46,908 nucleotides of DNA from a virus (lineage: Duplodnaviria; Heunggongvirae; Uroviricota; Caudoviricetes). Numbering within the stretch: position 1 is the first letter of the stretch; each line of letters opens with the position of its first letter. Shown piece by piece: positions 927 to 29,174 of the stretch. The notes below the pieces were generated by a model. It saw nothing but the letters and a program-made list of their open reading frames with translations. It did not search any database and was not told where the DNA came from. The position numbers and the translations under genes are program-made. The stretch lies in the IMG/VR virus record IMGVR_UViG_3300008255_000105, one strand, 5' to 3'.

Positions 927-1189
927 CTAAAAATCTAATTCATTAAATAAAATCTTTTCTTCTAATTCTGGAGTTTCTTTTCCATTAATGTCCCATTTTT
1001 TAATCCTCGGGGGTATTCAATTGCTGGCCCATCTTCTCTGTAACGTTTCTCTTCGAAGAACCATTCTTTTGTCCCGCTTATCCATTCAATTGCTGGCCCA
1101 TCTTCTCGATGAAACTTGACATCGAGAATCCAAACTGTTGCACAACCTTTTAGGGCTATGCAAGTCGGTTGTTCTTTTTTGTCACTCAT
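927..1189 (-). pseudogene. Short HRxDGPA-repeat protein, frameshifted near its 3' end
   Basis: Two repeat units (HREDGPA, YREDGPA). Frame 0 stops at 962, but the -1 frame after an A6 run continues WDINGKETPELEEKILFNELDF to TAG at 927, resembling the paralogues' C-termini. Confidence 0.6.
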
Positions 1190-1221
1190 CTGTGGCTTCC
1201 TTCGAAGAAATCAGTCAAAGA

Positions 1222-1866
1222 TCAAAGAATAAAAAAATCTTCTTTTAGTTCTTTTGGTTGTAATTTTTTGATTCGTCGGTTAAATTCTGATTCTGACAAC
1301 GACTTCCCATTGACCCACCATTCTTTTAAGCCATCAGCTTCTTCAATGGCTGGACCATTAAGGCGATGGCGTTGACCGTTGACCCACCAAGATTTTGACC
1401 CATCAGGCCATTCTCTTGCTGGCCCGTCTTCTCTGTGACGTTTCCCTTCGAAGAACCATTCTTTTGTTCCGTTGGCATTTTCAACGGCTGGCCCATCTGT
1501 TCGATGAAGTTGACCGTTGACCCACCAAGATTTTAAACCATCAGCCCATTCAATTGCTGGGCCATCAAGGCGATGGCGTTGGTCGTTTTGGAACCAAAAT
1601 TTTGTTCCGTCCAACCTTTCAATAGCTGGCCCGTCAAGGCGATGGCGTTTACCGTTGACCCACCATTGTTTTGACCCATCAGCTTTTTCAACGGCTGGCC
1701 CATCTTCTCGATGAAGTTTACCATTTTGGAGCCAAAATTTTGTCCCATCATCTTTTTCAACGGCTGGCCCATCTTCTCTGTGAAGTTGACCGTTAAACCG
1801 CCATTCTTTTGAGCCGTCGTCATCTACATAAGCAACAGGAATTGGATCAACCAATTTATTCTCCAT
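1222..1866 (-). CDS. HRxDGPA 23-aa tandem-repeat protein (7 units)
   Basis: Repeats of LHR(E/L)DGPA(V/I)ExxDGxKxWxxNG. Confidence 0.85.
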   Translation of the reverse strand: MENKLVDPIPVAYVDDDGSKEWRFNGQLHREDGPAVEKDDGTKFWLQNGKLHREDGPAVEKADGSKQWWVNGKRHRLDGPAIERLDGTKFWFQNDQRHRLDGPAIEWADGLKSWWVNGQLHRTDGPAVENANGTKEWFFEGKRHREDGPAREWPDGSKSWWVNGQRHRLNGPAIEEADGLKEWWVNGKSLSESEFNRRIKKLQPKELKEDFFIL

Positions 1867-7085: not shown

Positions 7086-7157
7086 CGCCCATAGGGGGAA
7101 TTGAACCCCTCCATTATAGCTCGACAGGCTATCGTGTCACCACAACACTTTATGGGC
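7086..7157 (-). tRNA. tRNA-Asp(GTC)
   Basis: Acceptor GCCCATA/TATGGGC, anticodon arm ATAGC-CT GTC GA-GCTAT, T loop TTCAATT; no encoded CCA. Confidence 0.9.
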
Positions 7158-8312: not shown

Positions 8313-8435
8313 TTTGCGAGAATTATCGAAAACTGGGTTTTTGGTTTCTACTGGAATCGAACCAGTAACATATTGATTAATAGTCAATTGATCTACCTTT
8401 GATCTAAGAAGTAACAGTTTTCTCGACTACGCAAA
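8313..8435 (-). ncRNA. Scaffold-family element copy A, enclosing a tRNA-like body
   Basis: TTTGCG/CGCAAA terminal stem, GAAAACTG/CAGTTTTC inner stem, GTAGTC-N11-TACTTC. Confidence 0.6.
8342..8413 (-). tRNA. Degenerate tRNA-Asn(ATT)-like element
   Basis: Intact D arm, anticodon arm ATTGA-CT ATT AA-TCAAT and T arm ACTGG-TTCGATT-CCAGT; outer 3 acceptor pairs mismatched (TACTTCT/AGAAACC). Confidence 0.6.
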
Positions 8436-8451
8436 ATCTTTTCAATAAATT

Positions 8452-8718
8452 CTATTTATCTTCTTTGGGGAAAATTCCCTTCATCATTTTTTTAAAATTT
8501 TCAATACAAGAGCCATCTACCATAAAATCATACGCATAATTTTGAGTGTAATCACATTTTGAACAAATCCATCCATCTTTTGTTGGAATTAATTTTTCTC
8601 TGCAAACACAAGTAAATGGATGCATTGGTTCAAATTCTTGAAACTCTTTTAAATTTTGGACCTGTTCATCAGTCCAAGGAGCAAAAACATCTTTCATTGT
8701 TTTAATTCCAGGTTCCAC
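8452..8718 (-). CDS. Small putative Zn-binding protein (alternative ATG at 8697)
   Basis: HPFTCVC...WICSKC Cys/His pattern. Confidence 0.65.
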   Translation of the reverse strand: MEPGIKTMKDVFAPWTDEQVQNLKEFQEFEPMHPFTCVCREKLIPTKDGWICSKCDYTQNYAYDFMVDGSCIENFKKMMKGIFPKEDK

Positions 8719-8825
8719 AAACTTAGTAAAACTTACCGAGTTTATATCAGGTCTCCCAAGGGATTCCCTTGCCCGAGAAAACCTAGTAACTCGGGACTTG
8801 GCAACGCCGAAGACGGCGTTGCCAA
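8715..8825 (-). ncRNA. Candidate structured RNA: three tandem hairpins plus 20-nt anti-motif tail
   Basis: 12-bp stem 8798-8825, CCCGAG/CTCGGG 8772-8795, CAAGGG/CCCTTG 8757-8771. Confidence 0.5.
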
Positions 8826-8900
8826 CTTAAAACCTCTTCATCTGTCATTAGAAAATCTTTTCCAATTACCATATTGATTACCTTTTAATTCAATTTCGAT

Positions 8901-9380: not shown

Positions 9381-9466
9381 AAAACAACTAACCAAACTTC
9401 AACTTCTTCTTCAATTATAGAGTTTAAATTTTTCCATTATTCTAATGAAAAATTCTAATCAGTGAC

Positions 9467-9514
9467 AAGATTTACTAAATTCGTGGCTATCGTTCATGGC
9501 CACCGTCCTGTTCC
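9467..9514 (-). ncRNA. Small RNA copy 1 (paralogue of 11401-11447)
   Basis: Begins 7 nt after an extended -10; GTGG/CCAC hairpin and conserved 3' module. Confidence 0.55.
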
Positions 9515-9520
9515 ATCCCT

Positions 9521-9531
9521 ATTATACCACA
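9521..9531 (-). promoter_or_regulatory. Extended -10 promoter
   Basis: TGTGGTATAAT. Confidence 0.7.
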
Positions 9532-9931
9532 CAGCGACAGATTCTTAATTGGAATTTTTGGAAGAAAAAATTTTATTTTTTAAATCAATTATACATAAAC
9601 CATCTGTTGCTTTTGCTCTTTCTCTTAAAGAAATAGGTCATGGTTCTGCTTGCCTTGTTTCAAAGAAATAAATATAATCATTAAAACTAACAACCAAATC
9701 GGGATGTTTAACATGTTTCCCTCTCTCCCTCAAGGTTCTTTTATACAAATTTTTATTCATCTGTTCAAAAATCTAATATTTCATCCTAAAAAAAGATAAA
9801 AACTTTTTACATGTTCTCCTTTTGCTTCTTTGAAAATCTTGGTAAATCTTCTTTTTCTATTTTCATTTAATTTTTCCCAACTTAAATGTTGGGCTTAATT
9901 TTCTGACAAATTTTCCACCATATTTAATCAT

Positions 9932-10234
9932 TCAAGTTTTTGTTTCTTCTTCTGCTTCAACTGTTTTACCTTCATGCCCCTCGACATATCCATATTGATC
10001 TAAACAGGCTATGCCGACTGCAACAACTTGAACAATTTCTGAAAGCATATCTTCTGAAACATCTTTTGTTGGTCCTTGGAACCAAGCCTCTTTTGCTTCT
10101 TGAAGTTCTCTTTCCATGATTGTAACCCATTCGAGAATTGAATGGGGATTTTCTTCAACACCACCCCATTTTTCGTCTTGAAAATCTCTTTCACGATTCA
10201 CAGCACCGTAGATATCATCTCTTTTGAATCTCAT
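9932..10234 (-). CDS. MazG-like NTP pyrophosphohydrolase-fold protein
   Basis: EWVTIMERELQEAKEAW ... SEIVQVVAVGIACL pattern (ExxE ... EhhQhhAV). Confidence 0.6.
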   Translation of the reverse strand: MRFKRDDIYGAVNRERDFQDEKWGGVEENPHSILEWVTIMERELQEAKEAWFQGPTKDVSEDMLSEIVQVVAVGIACLDQYGYVEGHEGKTVEAEEETKT

Positions 10235-10254
10235 GTTTAACTCCTTTTGTTAGC

Positions 10255-10650
10255 TCAATCTTCACAATCTTCGCAATTTTCGTCTTCTCCACAACAACAT
10301 GAAAATTGATTTTTACAAGCTTCATCAACCCAATAGGGAACCCATTTCATCCCTAAAGCATTTGGTAATTCATTTTTCACAAATTCAACAGATTCTGACC
10401 ACTTAATGTTTTCAACAATAACTTTTCTCCCAGCCAAGAGAGCCATAAAATAACCCAAATCATCTTCATCTTCTGTCCAAGCTGGTTGTGTTTGGTCAAA
10501 TTCATTAACTGATGTAAAATAAGAATCCTCTATATCATTTTCACTTAAATAATTGAGATACTCTTGTTCTTCCAAACCTTTTTCTTCTGCTTCTTTGGAG
10601 AATCTCTGTGATTCATCCAAAAACCGTTGAACCTTCTCTTCTTTCGTCAT
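10255..10650 (-). CDS. Hypothetical acidic protein with Cys-rich tail
   Basis: 131-aa ORF, CCCGEDENCEDC C-terminus. Confidence 0.65.
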   Translation of the reverse strand: MTKEEKVQRFLDESQRFSKEAEEKGLEEQEYLNYLSENDIEDSYFTSVNEFDQTQPAWTEDEDDLGYFMALLAGRKVIVENIKWSESVEFVKNELPNALGMKWVPYWVDEACKNQFSCCCGEDENCEDCED

Positions 10651-11012
10651 GGCGCTTTCCCTTCTTCTAGGATTTTTTCCAGTTCAAAATCAAACTCTTC
10701 ACCTGTCATCTTTTTAATTTCCAATTCTAAATCTTGAATTCCATCTTTGTGTTCTATTAAAAATCTTATATTATCTGAAACTTTATTTATTTTTTCTAAA
10801 TTCTTTTCTTTGTTTTTTTCATTAAAATAAGAACCTAAAAGAAAAAAACAACCAACAGGGCCTAAAATCACAACACCTAAACTTGCGAGGAAGATAGTAA
10901 AAAAGACAGAATCATAAAACACATTTTTAACAATGAATGATGAAATATCTTTAAAAACAATTCCAAGAACAAAGGCCCCTGTCAAAAACCAAGTGATATC
11001 AGTTGGATGCAT
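10647..11012 (-). CDS. Hypothetical membrane protein
   Basis: Two hydrophobic helices; ATGA overlap with the next gene. Confidence 0.7.
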   Translation of the reverse strand: MHPTDITWFLTGAFVLGIVFKDISSFIVKNVFYDSVFFTIFLASLGVVILGPVGCFFLLGSYFNEKNKEKNLEKINKVSDNIRFLIEHKDGIQDLELEIKKMTGEEFDFELEKILEEGKAP

Positions 11013-11106
11013 TGTGTTCTCCTAATCTTTCCCTTCTTTTAGAATCTTTTCCAACACAATTCTTGGCCAATCTTTAAAGACAAGCTCGCTATTCAATCTC
11101 CATTTT

Positions 11107-11334
11107 TCATCTTCTGGAATGTGTGAATTCTCTCTCACAAATTGAAGCCGGTCGAATTTCCTCAAATGTGAACGGGGATGTTATAGCATTCTCGACTTTC
11201 TGGAGCCATTCATTAAATTGTTCAAGATCGGGAACTTCATCGAGAGTGGAATCAAAAAAGATTTCTTCTCCGTCCTCAGTGATGAAGGATTCCTTGGTTA
11301 TTTTCACGACTGTCATTTTATTTTCTCCGTTCAT
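11107..11334 (-). CDS. Hypothetical protein
   Basis: 75-aa ORF; internal ATG with GGAG RBS. Confidence 0.55.
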   Translation of the reverse strand: MNGENKMTVVKITKESFITEDGEEIFFDSTLDEVPDLEQFNEWLQKVENAITSPFTFEEIRPASICEREFTHSRR

Positions 11335-11400
11335 ATAGTATACTTCTAGTATTATATGAAAAACTACTTCAATTCGGCAATATTTTTACCGATATTTTTC

Positions 11401-11447
11401 AAGATTTACTAAGTTCGTGGCTATCGCTTGTAACCACCGGAACAGGA
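11401..11447 (-). ncRNA. Small RNA copy 2
   Basis: AAGATTTACTAAGTTCGTGGCTATCG is 25/26 identical to 9467-9492; same GTGG/CCAC hairpin. Confidence 0.55.
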
Positions 11448-11574
11448 GCAACCCAGACTTGGAATAAAAAAATGTCTAATCTTCAGTTGAAGGAGTCAAG
11501 GGAATCAAAATAGATTCTTTAAATTTATCTATCTTTTTCTTTGTTATAATCCCATTCTCTCATTTTGACTCCAA

Positions 11575-12555: not shown

Positions 12556-12863
12556 GAAATCTCCTCTTCGTTGCAAAATTCACAAATCCAAACAAAGATA
12601 TCTTTGTTTGGATTCAGGAACCAAATGATTTTTTCTAGAAAATTCAAACCCTTGGGTTTAATTGGATTTTTCTTTTTCAGATATGTTTTAGAGTCACCAC
12701 AATGAACACACTTTTTAGAACCAGAGGGGTGTGAAACGATTAAAACCTCACGGCCAACACAAGGTCCACCGATGAATTCCTTTTCTATAAGGCTAAAATA
12801 ATCCAAAGTGGGGAACATATCTACGATGTTCCCCACTAAACACTTTGTATTTCCTAAATACAT
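12552..12863 (-). CDS. Hypothetical Zn-ribbon protein
   Basis: CVHC ... CEFC. Confidence 0.65.
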   Translation of the reverse strand: MYLGNTKCLVGNIVDMFPTLDYFSLIEKEFIGGPCVGREVLIVSHPSGSKKCVHCGDSKTYLKKKNPIKPKGLNFLEKIIWFLNPNKDIFVWICEFCNEEEIS

Positions 12864-14323: not shown

Positions 14324-14397
14324 CAACAATTTTCGAATGTAATTAAAGTTTTTCTCAACTAATTTCAAATATCCTCTAATTTTCTCAAATTCTTTTT

Positions 14398-14450
14398 GTC
14401 GCTTTGAGGAATGACCCCAGCCACCCTCTCTCTGCGACACAGCCATTATA
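14398..14450 (-). other. -10 box followed by a ~41-nt hairpin RNA
   Basis: TATAAT 14450-14445; GTCGC/GCGAC stem starts at about +1 (14438) with inner GAGGG/TTCCTC and TGGC/GTCA pairings. Confidence 0.45.
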
Positions 14451-25801: not shown

Positions 25802-26836
25802 CTAGATACCCACAGAATCTTTTACTTTCTTCATCAAAACAGAAATTTCAGCACCGACTCCTAATTCTGATTTAAAAATTAAATCATCTAGATCAGAATC
25901 AGAATATTTAGATAGTTCCAAATATCTCTCTCTTTGTTCTTTAAAGAAAAATAAAAATTTTTCAAATAATAATTGCTTACTTTCCATATACCCTATTTCT
26001 CCATTAAAATAAAGTTTTTCTAGATCATTTATTTCAGAGCTATTTGAAAATAATCTATGTAAAGAAAAAATTGTACAATTAGATGGTTTCAATGATTGGC
26101 CTTTTGGAGTCCCGTCTGTTTTTATTTGTTTTATTTTTGTCATCAAAGATTTTTCAGTCTCAAAAATACCTAAATAATTATTATAACTTTTAGACATTTT
26201 TTGTCCATCAGTTCCTGGTATTTTTTCTGCTCCTAAAATAATTTTTGGATCTGGAATTTTCAAAACATTCCCATATTTTGAATTAAATCTAGTAGCTAAT
26301 TCTCTTGCTATTTGAATATGTTGCAATTGATCTTCTCCGACAGGAACAGAATCTGCTGAGATTGAGAGAATATCTGCTGCCATTAAAACTGGATAACAAA
26401 AAGTACCGACATTGATTGTTACTCCGACATTTGCAGCTTCATTAAACTTACCTCGATTTTGGAGTTCTTTTCTTTTATTGTCAGCTTCAAATTCTGCTGC
26501 TTTATAAGCATGTGATCTTAAAAGAGTTCCCATAGGGACAACACAAGACAAAATCCAAGATAATTCACAAATTTCTGGGAATTTACTTTGTCGATAAATA
26601 TGACAAGATTCTGGATCTACTCCTAATGATAAATATTGAATTATCAATTCATGAATGTTATTAGAAATTTCTATTTTGTTATTTAATGTTGTTAAAGCAT
26701 GTAAATCAGCTATAAAAATATAAACATCATCTGATTCGTCTTGATTTATAATTATTGGATTTATTGAAGAAAAATAATTACCTAAATGTAAAAAGTTGCT
26801 CGTTGGCTTAACCCCTGTCATCATTCTCATTTTCAT
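25802..26836 (-). CDS. trpS: Tryptophanyl-tRNA synthetase
   Basis: MTGVKPT, LHLGNY, IADLHALT, YPVLMAADIL, VPVGEDQLQH, KMSKS. Confidence 0.95.
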   Translation of the reverse strand: MKMRMMTGVKPTSNFLHLGNYFSSINPIIINQDESDDVYIFIADLHALTTLNNKIEISNNIHELIIQYLSLGVDPESCHIYRQSKFPEICELSWILSCVVPMGTLLRSHAYKAAEFEADNKRKELQNRGKFNEAANVGVTINVGTFCYPVLMAADILSISADSVPVGEDQLQHIQIARELATRFNSKYGNVLKIPDPKIILGAEKIPGTDGQKMSKSYNNYLGIFETEKSLMTKIKQIKTDGTPKGQSLKPSNCTIFSLHRLFSNSSEINDLEKLYFNGEIGYMESKQLLFEKFLFFFKEQRERYLELSKYSDSDLDDLIFKSELGVGAEISVLMKKVKDSVGI

Positions 26837-27275: not shown

Positions 27276-29174
27276 TCATTCCCCTGTAAAATTCCCCTCG
27301 GGTATATTTAAGCCGGTTTTGCACCTTTTGTTAAATTCTTCTTCTGAAAGTTGTTTGCCATTGATCCACCATTCTTTTGATCCGTCGGCAAATTCAATTG
27401 CTGGCCCGTCTTCTCGATGGAGTTGACCGTTTTGCCACCATTCTTTTGTCCCATTTGCCCATTCAATAGCAGGCCCATCTTCTCGATGAAGTTTGCCATT
27501 TTGGAGCCATTGTTTTGTTCCATTTGCAGATTCAATTGCTGGGCCATCAAGGCGATGGCGTTTGCCATTTTGGAACCATTCTTTTGAACCATCGGCTCGT
27601 TCTTTTGCTGGGCCATCAAGGCGGTGAAGCTGTCCATTTTGCCACCAATGTTTTGAACCATTGGCAAATTCAACGGCTGGGCCATCAAGGCGATGAAGCT
27701 GATCATTGACCCACCATTCTTTTGTCCCATTTGCCCATTCAATAGCAGGCCCATCTTCTCGATGAAGTTTGCCATTTTGGAACCATTCTTTTGTCCCATC
27801 GGCTCGTTCTTTTGCTGGGCCATCTTCTCGATGAAGCAAGCCGTTCAATCGCCATTCTTTTGTCCCATCTTCAAAGGTTTTAAGAGTTGATTTTTCTTTT
27901 GGTCCTTTTGATGGTAATTGTTCGGTTCTTTTTTTAAATTCTTCTTCTGAAAGTTGTTTCCCATGGATAAACCAATATTTATTTCCGCTGATCACTTCAA
28001 TTGCTGACCCATCTTCTCGGTGAAGTTGGCCATTTTGGAACCATTCTTTTAAGCCGTCGGCTTTTTCAACGGCTGGGCCATCAAGGCGATGAAGTTTGCC
28101 ATTTTGTAACCATTCTTTTGAGCCGTCGGCCATTTCAATTGCTGGGCCATCAAGGCGATGAAGCTGGCCATTTTGCCACCATTCTTTTAAGCCATTGTCT
28201 CGTTCAATTGCTGGTCCATCAAGGCGATGAAGTTTGCCATTTTGGAACCATTCTTTTGAGCCGTCGGCCATTTCAATTGCTGGGCCATCAAGGCGATGAA
28301 GTTGACCGTTTTGCCACCAAAATTTTGCCCCGTCGGCAAATTCAACGGCTGGCCCGTCTTCTCGATGGAGTTGACCGTTTTGCCACCATTCTTTTGTCCC
28401 ATCGGCTCGTTCTCTTGCTGGTCCATCAAGGCGATGAAGTTTGCCATTTTGGAACCATTCTTTTGACCCATCGGCAAATTCAATTGCTGGCCCATCTTCT
28501 CGATGAGGTTGACCATTGATGAACCATTTTTTGAACCATTTTTTTGGCCCATTAGGAATTTGAACTATAGTAAAACGTTCTCTTTCATTTGTCTCTTCGT
28601 GGCCGTGGCTGTGCTCTTCGGGGCCGTGGCCGTGGCTGTGCTCTTCGGGGCCGTGGCCGTGGCTGTGCTCTTCGGGGCCGTGGCCGTGGCTGTGCTCTTC
28701 GGGGCTGTGTTCTTCGGGGCCGTGGCTGTGTTCTTCGGGGCCGTGGCCGTGGCTGTGCTCTTCGGGGTTGTGACCGTGCTCTTCTTGGCCGTGCTTGTGT
28801 GCGGCGTCGTGCAATTCCTCCCAAGCTTCTTCAATCTCGTTTATTTTCATCACAGTAAATTCATGTGAAAGGATAAGATAATCACCGAAATCTTCATCAT
28901 AAACGACGACTGCTACTTCTTGTGGGGGACCGAAATCAATAATTTGTTGTGCCAAAACAAGAGAAGCACTGAGGTGTTCTTTTTCATCTTCACAATTCAC
29001 GGGAACAATTGATTGCATCATACCGTTTGCCAATGGTCCATTAGCAGACAAAAGATTCTTTTTGCCGAAAAACCATCGGTATCTGATCGCTACTTTTAGT
29101 TTTTGGTTTGTTTCAAATCCTGGTGTTCCACCATTAACCAAATTGCGAATATCCTCTGGATTGAAAACGCACAT
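27276..29174 (-). CDS. Multidomain protein: unknown N-domain, His-rich repeats, 15 HRxDGPA repeats in two blocks (8+7)
   Basis: ATG 29174 with GAGGAG RBS; repeats counted in the translation. Confidence 0.85.
   Translation of the reverse strand: MCVFNPEDIRNLVNGGTPGFETNQKLKVAIRYRWFFGKKNLLSANGPLANGMMQSIVPVNCEDEKEHLSASLVLAQQIIDFGPPQEVAVVVYDEDFGDYLILSHEFTVMKINEIEEAWEELHDAAHKHGQEEHGHNPEEHSHGHGPEEHSHGPEEHSPEEHSHGHGPEEHSHGHGPEEHSHGHGPEEHSHGHEETNERERFTIVQIPNGPKKWFKKWFINGQPHREDGPAIEFADGSKEWFQNGKLHRLDGPARERADGTKEWWQNGQLHREDGPAVEFADGAKFWWQNGQLHRLDGPAIEMADGSKEWFQNGKLHRLDGPAIERDNGLKEWWQNGQLHRLDGPAIEMADGSKEWLQNGKLHRLDGPAVEKADGLKEWFQNGQLHREDGSAIEVISGNKYWFIHGKQLSEEEFKKRTEQLPSKGPKEKSTLKTFEDGTKEWRLNGLLHREDGPAKERADGTKEWFQNGKLHREDGPAIEWANGTKEWWVNDQLHRLDGPAVEFANGSKHWWQNGQLHRLDGPAKERADGSKEWFQNGKRHRLDGPAIESANGTKQWLQNGKLHREDGPAIEWANGTKEWWQNGQLHREDGPAIEFADGSKEWWINGKQLSEEEFNKRCKTGLNIPEGNFTGE
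28595..28800 (-). repeat. 27-bp tandem repeat encoding (HGPEEHSHG)n
   Basis: GGCCGTGGCTGTGCTCTTCGG units on the + strand. Confidence 0.9.

What the first reader, a model, noticed from the sequence alone, without database searches (positions are those of the whole stretch)
9506..11447. The two small RNAs have exactly complementary 9-nt 5' tails
Seen: just outside the shared hairpin, copy 1 has TCCTGTTCC (+, 9506-9514) and copy 2 has GGAACAGGA (+, 11439-11447), a perfect inversion at the equivalent position. On the minus strand copy 1 begins GGAACAGGA exactly at the predicted +1 (7 nt after TGTGGTATAAT), and copy 2 contains UCCUGUUCC. Inference: the two RNAs could heterodimerise tail to tail while each offers its 3' module to a target, forming a multi-RNA assembly or a mutual sponge. 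A micro-inversion after duplication is the mundane alternative.
Basis: partly seen in the sequence, partly recalled or inferred. Interest (0 to 1): 0.72.

Follow-up and report, generated by a model that had tools for sequence, protein, structure and literature searches.

The report
Complementary tails of twin phage RNAs
Two copies of a likely small RNA gene in a large uncultured phage carry exactly complementary 9-letter segments, but the one related phage fragment found lacks that segment while keeping the rest, so it is more likely a local sequence flip than a built-in way for the two RNAs to pair.

Summary
Observation confirmed: 9506-9514 and 11439-11447 are exact reverse complements beside a 40-nt direct repeat (8 nt in strict register; chance 1e-5 to 2e-3 by null; 1 of 118 repeat pairs). 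Copy 1's segment starts at the predicted +1. New evidence: one orthologue of copy 2 (L063, 90% identical) keeps the core (34/39) and the 3' module but not the tail (1-4 of 9 identical, compatible with neutral drift at pS 0.34). It also breaks the 'shared hairpin' and instead shows a 10-bp stem from a 5' arm to the module, so the segment is an internal variable slot in copy 2, which has no promoter of its own. Predicted heterodimer energy (-7.4 kcal/mol) barely beats copy 1's homodimer (-6.7); module pairing to a third RNA is stronger. Best reading (0.45): an in-place 8-10-nt inversion in an unconstrained slot of a duplicated, undescribed small-RNA element. Functional tail pairing stays open (0.25): the orthologue's copy 1 is missing, so covariation is untested. 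Not noted by this scan on other DNA.

The parts
9521..9531 (-). Extended -10 promoter of copy 1; predicted +1 at 9514
   Evidence: consensus match only, not mapped
9506..9514 (-). Copy 1 variable slot, GGAACAGGA, the predicted 5' end of RNA1
9466..9505 (-). Copy 1 conserved core: GGUGG, short hairpin, CGAUAGCC and 3' module
9465..9470 (-). UCUUGU, predicted cis partner of the last six slot bases of RNA1
   Evidence: unpaired probability 0.04 or less for the last five slot bases; fold z -1.15, not significant
11452..11460 (-). Copy 2 5' arm; pairs 7/9 with 11411-11419 here and 10/10 in the orthologue L063 (76-85 with 116-125)
   Evidence: chance 0.002-0.003 in L063
11439..11447 (-). Copy 2 variable slot, UCCUGUUCC, reverse complement of the copy 1 slot; not conserved in L063
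11400..11438 (-). Copy 2 conserved core and 3' module (34/39 identical in L063)
8715..8734 (-). Main site complementary to the module, in a third structured segment (8700-8838): 19/20 paired, one or two G-U
8780..8789 (-). Second, 10-nt module-complementary site in the same segment
   Evidence: predicted mostly paired in cis in complexes
11107..11380 (-). Downstream promoter (-35 at 11380, -10 ending 11351) and 69/75-aa gene that anchor the orthology with L063

Best explanation
Copies 1 and 2 are paralogues of an undescribed small-RNA element in the tRNA region of a large phage. Its conserved business end is the 3' module, which can pair with a third structured segment (8715-8734) or, in the copy-2 form, with its own 5' arm. 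Between the arm and the core lies a 11-13-nt slot that is not under visible constraint. The complementarity arose when 8-10 nt of this slot were flipped in place in one copy, at or after the duplication, by a short replication template switch. It is a by-product; the RNAs may pair weakly but nothing depends on it. Shown: the sequences, the orthologue's divergence, the stem in L063. Inferred: transcription, RNA identity, the inversion event and its mechanism, lack of function.
For: Exact register: re-inverting 8 nt makes the copies identical over 14 nt, and similarity resumes beyond the slot (5/6, p about 0.01). The orthologue L063 keeps core 34/39 and spacer 61/66 but only 1-4 of 9 tail bases; at synonymous divergence 0.34 that is what neutral sequence does (p 0.16). 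No promoter makes the slot a 5' end in copy 2. Heterodimer -7.4 vs copy 1 homodimer -6.7 kcal/mol at 37 C, and -8.4 vs -9.0 at 17 C; the trimer with RNA3 is only additive. Short template switches can invert a fragment alone (PMC5453318; shown in apes, classical model from bacteria).
Against: No inverted repeat flanks the slot beyond one base pair, so the common spacer-flip route is not supported. Both slots must have stayed unchanged since the flip: 0.035 at neutral divergence, 0.27 at the core's divergence. Re-inverting does not bring copy 2 closer to L063 (score 16 vs 20), so direction and timing are unresolved. The slot of copy 1 begins exactly at the predicted +1. One orthologue only, from a 552-nt contig with a different upstream gene.
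Confidence: 0.45

Rival explanations
1. The tails are a selected, lineage-specific lock and key. RNA1's free 5' end binds the slot of RNA2 (in trans, or in cis across a 1.9-kb read-through transcript). RNA1's module then takes RNA2's 5' arm, freeing RNA2's module for the third RNA, or the pair bridges its two sites.
For: +1 coincides with the tail. The module motif occurs exactly four times in 47 kb (0.73 expected), two in each orientation, all within 2.7 kb. Differences to the main site are G-U on the minus strand. The cofold forms all nine pairs plus arm-module pairs. Three alleles of the slot are unlike each other, as a specificity determinant would be.
Against: Tail absent in the orthologue; covariation of 5-8 of 9 bases within 10% overall divergence would be needed. 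No matching free toehold is predicted in both monomers. No cooperativity, and the second site is not used in the trimer fold. The motif count was made after seeing the motif.
Confidence: 0.25
2. Chance: a purine-rich 5' end and a pyrimidine-rich linker happen to be complementary, with no inversion and no function.
For: The slot is freely variable. With generous windows and fixed composition the chance is 0.002 per pair, and many features of a 47-kb window were scanned.
Against: Exact register (about 1e-5); none of the other 117 repeat pairs shows it.
Confidence: 0.2
3. The 8-9-mers are inverted crossover cores of a 1.9-kb invertible segment (9515-11438). Flipping it would join the two cores' arms into one 88-nt near-palindrome, as in an attP-like site.
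For: The geometry holds: the flipped junction folds as a 40-bp hairpin. BLAST homology to L063 starts at 11438, right at the tail.
Against: No flipped junction in 10 and 11 assemblies spanning the two ends (assemblies drop rare forms). The four genes inside run with their neighbours. No recombinase was recognised among adjacent genes. L063 shares the 5' arm upstream of the slot (p 0.008).
Confidence: 0.07

Closest known systems
Short template-switch inversions (four-point model, PMC5453318; Ripley model for bacteria)
   Same: A short fragment replaced by its reverse complement between co-oriented homologous flanks, seen as a cluster of differences.
   Different: No flanking inverted repeat here; seen between paralogues of a phage, with no ancestral state available.
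Trans-acting antisense sRNAs and sRNA sponges (general knowledge; e.g. RNA-RNA seed pairing of 8-10 bp)
   Same: A 9-bp seed at a 5' end and a 16-20-nt module complementary to another RNA near a start codon.
   Different: The partners would be paralogues of each other; the seed is not conserved; no expression or binding data.
GOLLD and ROOL RNAs (PMC12286853)
   Same: Phage non-coding RNAs near tRNA islands that assemble by intermolecular pairing.
   Different: Those are single large RNAs forming homo-multimers with covarying bridges; these are about 55-65 nt, would be hetero-oligomers, and hit no Rfam family.
PeSL promoter/stem-loop cassettes of T4-like phages (PMC4122927, PMC2839356)
   Same: Intergenic direct repeats with a promoter and stem-loop among small orphan genes; homology with L063 changes upstream of the element.
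   Different: Only two copies; the promoter is not part of the repeat; no terminator U-tract; primary sequence complementary to a third locus.
TIGR arrays (PMC12045711)
   Same: Variable segments of about 9 nt inside conserved flanks, in phages.
   Different: No tandem array, no dual spacers in box C/D flanks, no Nop-domain gene recognised next to it.

Membership tests
Template-switch micro-inversion | Segment is the exact reverse complement at the homologous position | tested here: met
   8/8 in register
Template-switch micro-inversion | Co-oriented homology on both sides | tested here: met
   40-nt repeat on one side; 5/6 with a 1-nt offset on the other, p about 0.01; modest
Template-switch micro-inversion | Flanking inverted repeat (classical spacer flip) | tested here: not met
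   one base pair only; not required in the generalised model
Template-switch micro-inversion | Outgroup shows the un-inverted state | tested here: inconclusive
   L063 matches neither orientation well
sRNA-sponge / heterodimer pair | Complementarity conserved or covarying in relatives | tested here: inconclusive
   not conserved in copy 2 orthologue; its copy 1 unavailable
sRNA-sponge / heterodimer pair | Both RNAs expressed with the seed included | not testable with these tools
sRNA-sponge / heterodimer pair | Accessible seed and favoured duplex | tested here: inconclusive
   -7.4 kcal/mol vs -6.7 homodimer; seeds half sequestered
GOLLD / ROOL | Match to the Rfam model; several hundred nt | tested here: not met
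PeSL cassette | Promoter plus terminator stem-loop repeated as one unit | tested here: not met
   promoter upstream of copy 1 only; no terminator-like hit at either copy
TIGR-Tas | Tandem array of dual-spacer units | tested here: not met
   two copies 1.9 kb apart, none further in 67 kb; one isolated CCA-N9-TG
TIGR-Tas | Adjacent Nop-domain protein | tested here: not met
   no such Pfam/PHROG hit in neighbouring genes; remote homology not excluded
Invertible segment (shufflon / att-type) | Both orientations present; recombinase nearby | tested here: not met
   assemblies only, no reads

The most novel reading that the evidence does not exclude
A three-piece phage RNA device: two paralogous small RNAs recognise each other through a fast-evolving, lineage-specific 9-nt lock and key, which by strand exchange sets which module engages a third structured RNA in front of a gene.
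Probability: 0.15. Interest if true: 0.8.

Novelty: new variant of a known kind. Interest (0 to 1): 0.4.

Why it matters
If the best reading holds, the tail match is a small mutational curiosity, and the value lies in the element itself: a conserved small-RNA candidate absent from Rfam, with a module complementary to a third RNA. If the pairing is selected, it would be a hetero-oligomeric phage RNA assembly with a programmable partner code. I know of no described case, though my literature searches were few. It would be cheap to test in vitro.

Tried and rejected
DNA pattern scans found no further family members in viral (chance hits or none), metagenome (23, 54) or genome collections, nor in cultured phages. 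Protein routes to relatives failed: neighbours are orphans; P0003 and P0004 lie in unrelated contexts. All other contigs over this region are the same phage, identical at both tails. No whole genome is held. No Rfam match. A model of the three copies found no fourth copy in about 67 kb. Considered from memory and dropped on inspection, not formally tested: pistol, twister, hairpin and HDV-like ribozymes, attC, dif, sigma-54/-32 promoters, split tRNA, CsrA sponge (three GGA motifs around copy 1's start, none in copy 2). A DNA operator reading of the dyad is weakened because L063 loses the dyad. Fold z-scores of all copies are not significant. TAG is used as a stop, so no recoding.

Full report
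Context. The window looks like part of a large phage: nine or so tRNA genes between 7085 and 13341, many orphan genes, contigs up to 132 kb. It has no close cultured relative and uses extended -10 promoters. Its other assemblies are identical over this region.

Observation. The two 9-mers are at the stated coordinates and unique in the window. They adjoin a 40-nt direct repeat. Eight bases are in strict register; the ninth borrows the repeat's last G. Chance is about 1e-5 for exact register and up to 0.002 with loose windows and fixed composition. It is the only such case among 118 repeat pairs. So it is probably not chance, but chance is not excluded. Copy 1's segment starts seven bases after a perfect extended -10 element. 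Copy 2 has none within 460 nt upstream and sits between a stop codon (11575) and the next gene's promoter.

The orthologue. A cluster look-up of the 75-aa gene downstream of copy 2 gave a variant on a 552-nt contig from another sample (L063). It is 90% identical to 11438-11155. The core is 34/39 identical, the spacer to the gene 61/66, the gene 162/179, with synonymous divergence 0.34. So core and module are under purifying selection. The tail is not: 1 of 9 bases match ungapped, 4 of 9 with a 2-nt gap, which neutral drift allows (p 0.16). No 5-mer of the tail is present there in either orientation. Instead a 5' arm pairs 10/10 with the module region (chance 0.002-0.003). The window's copy 2 has a matching arm (7/9 identical, p 0.008) that pairs 7/9, with one U-G to A-U double change by my reading of two sequences. 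That fold is not the predicted minimum for copy 2 (-10.4 vs -15.3 when enforced). The element therefore probably extends 5' of the 'tail', which is an internal variable slot. In copy 1 the promoter occupies the arm's place, so RNA1 would be a 5'-shortened form. Caveat: L063 has a different upstream gene, so a recombination break at the slot's edge is possible.

The module. Bases 9467-9486 and 11401-11420 pair 19/20 with 8715-8734 on the same strand, the variable positions being G-U. The 10-nt motif occurs four times in the window, two per orientation. L063's module has two more mismatches to this window's site, so its partner would have to covary; untested. This pairing is predicted stronger than the tail pairing: -13.4 (RNA2) and -7.9 (RNA1) vs -7.4 kcal/mol. 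Ends of RNA2 and RNA3 are my guesses.

Tail pairing. All nine pairs form in the cofold, and RNA1's module can also take RNA2's arm. But the last five tail bases of RNA1 and four of RNA2 are paired in the monomers, with no matching free toehold. RNA1's homodimer is about as stable (-6.7; at 17 C -9.0 vs -8.4). The trimer with RNA3 is additive, not cooperative (-22.3 vs -21.8), and does not use the second site.

Origin. On the minus strand copy 1 reads GGGATG, slot, CGGTGG; copy 2 reads GGGTTG, C, inverted slot, CGGTGG. Co-oriented flanks around an inverted centre are what a short template switch leaves; the generalised model includes inversion of a fragment alone (PMC5453318). Against it: no flanking inverted repeat; both slots must be unchanged since the event (0.035-0.27); L063 does not polarise it. 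The same geometry can be read as a 1.9-kb invertible segment, but no assembly shows the flipped junctions and the genes inside run with their neighbours.

Comparison. No Rfam family matches. It shares a setting with GOLLD and ROOL but not size or architecture. It fails the PeSL and TIGR definitions. If functional it would work like a seed-pairing sponge; membership cannot be shown without expression or covariation.

Verdict. Real feature, interpretation unproven and weakened. Micro-inversion in a free slot 0.45; selected pairing 0.25; chance 0.2; invertible segment 0.07. One missing sequence, the relative's copy 1, would separate the first two. Interest 0.4.

Noticed in passing
window 14291, 14080, 13509, 13406, 13135, 8413 (minus; position of TACTTC): Six copies of a scaffold GAAGUC..UACUUC..AUUCUC with variable inserts among the tRNA genes; a viral scan gave only hits that look like chance.
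   Followed up: partly
window 8700-8838 (minus): GC-rich three-hairpin segment that can close as a four-way junction, followed by the module-complementary site 18 nt before the ATG at 8697.
   Followed up: partly
L063 381-552: The 69-aa gene is cut short and followed by a MerR-type HTH gene start after two TTAACA repeats; resembles an IS607-type left end (from memory).
   Followed up: partly
window 7127-7135 (minus): tRNA-Asp shares ACGATAGCC with copy 1's core; in L063 the same stretch is followed by a loop-like CU-CUA-AC, but no anticodon stem forms.
   Followed up: partly
window 8346-8410 (minus): tRNA-like body found by Rfam but not by ARAGORN, inside a scaffold copy.
   Followed up: no
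window 14390-14440 (minus): Promoter at 14451-14445 followed by a GTCGC...GCGAC-closed small hairpin RNA candidate.
   Followed up: no
window 12585-12614: Perfect 30-nt palindrome inside the 103-aa gene.
   Followed up: no
window 9625-9714 (minus): 29-codon hydrophobic ORF with a strong Shine-Dalgarno sequence just upstream of copy 1's promoter.
   Followed up: no
window 960-1822 and 27325-28539: Two genes built of related 69-nt tandem repeats.
   Followed up: no
window 25802-26836; L066 14571-17037: The element encodes a class I (Trp/Tyr) tRNA synthetase, and nearby a His-tRNA-synthetase-like and an Apyc1-like gene.
   Followed up: no
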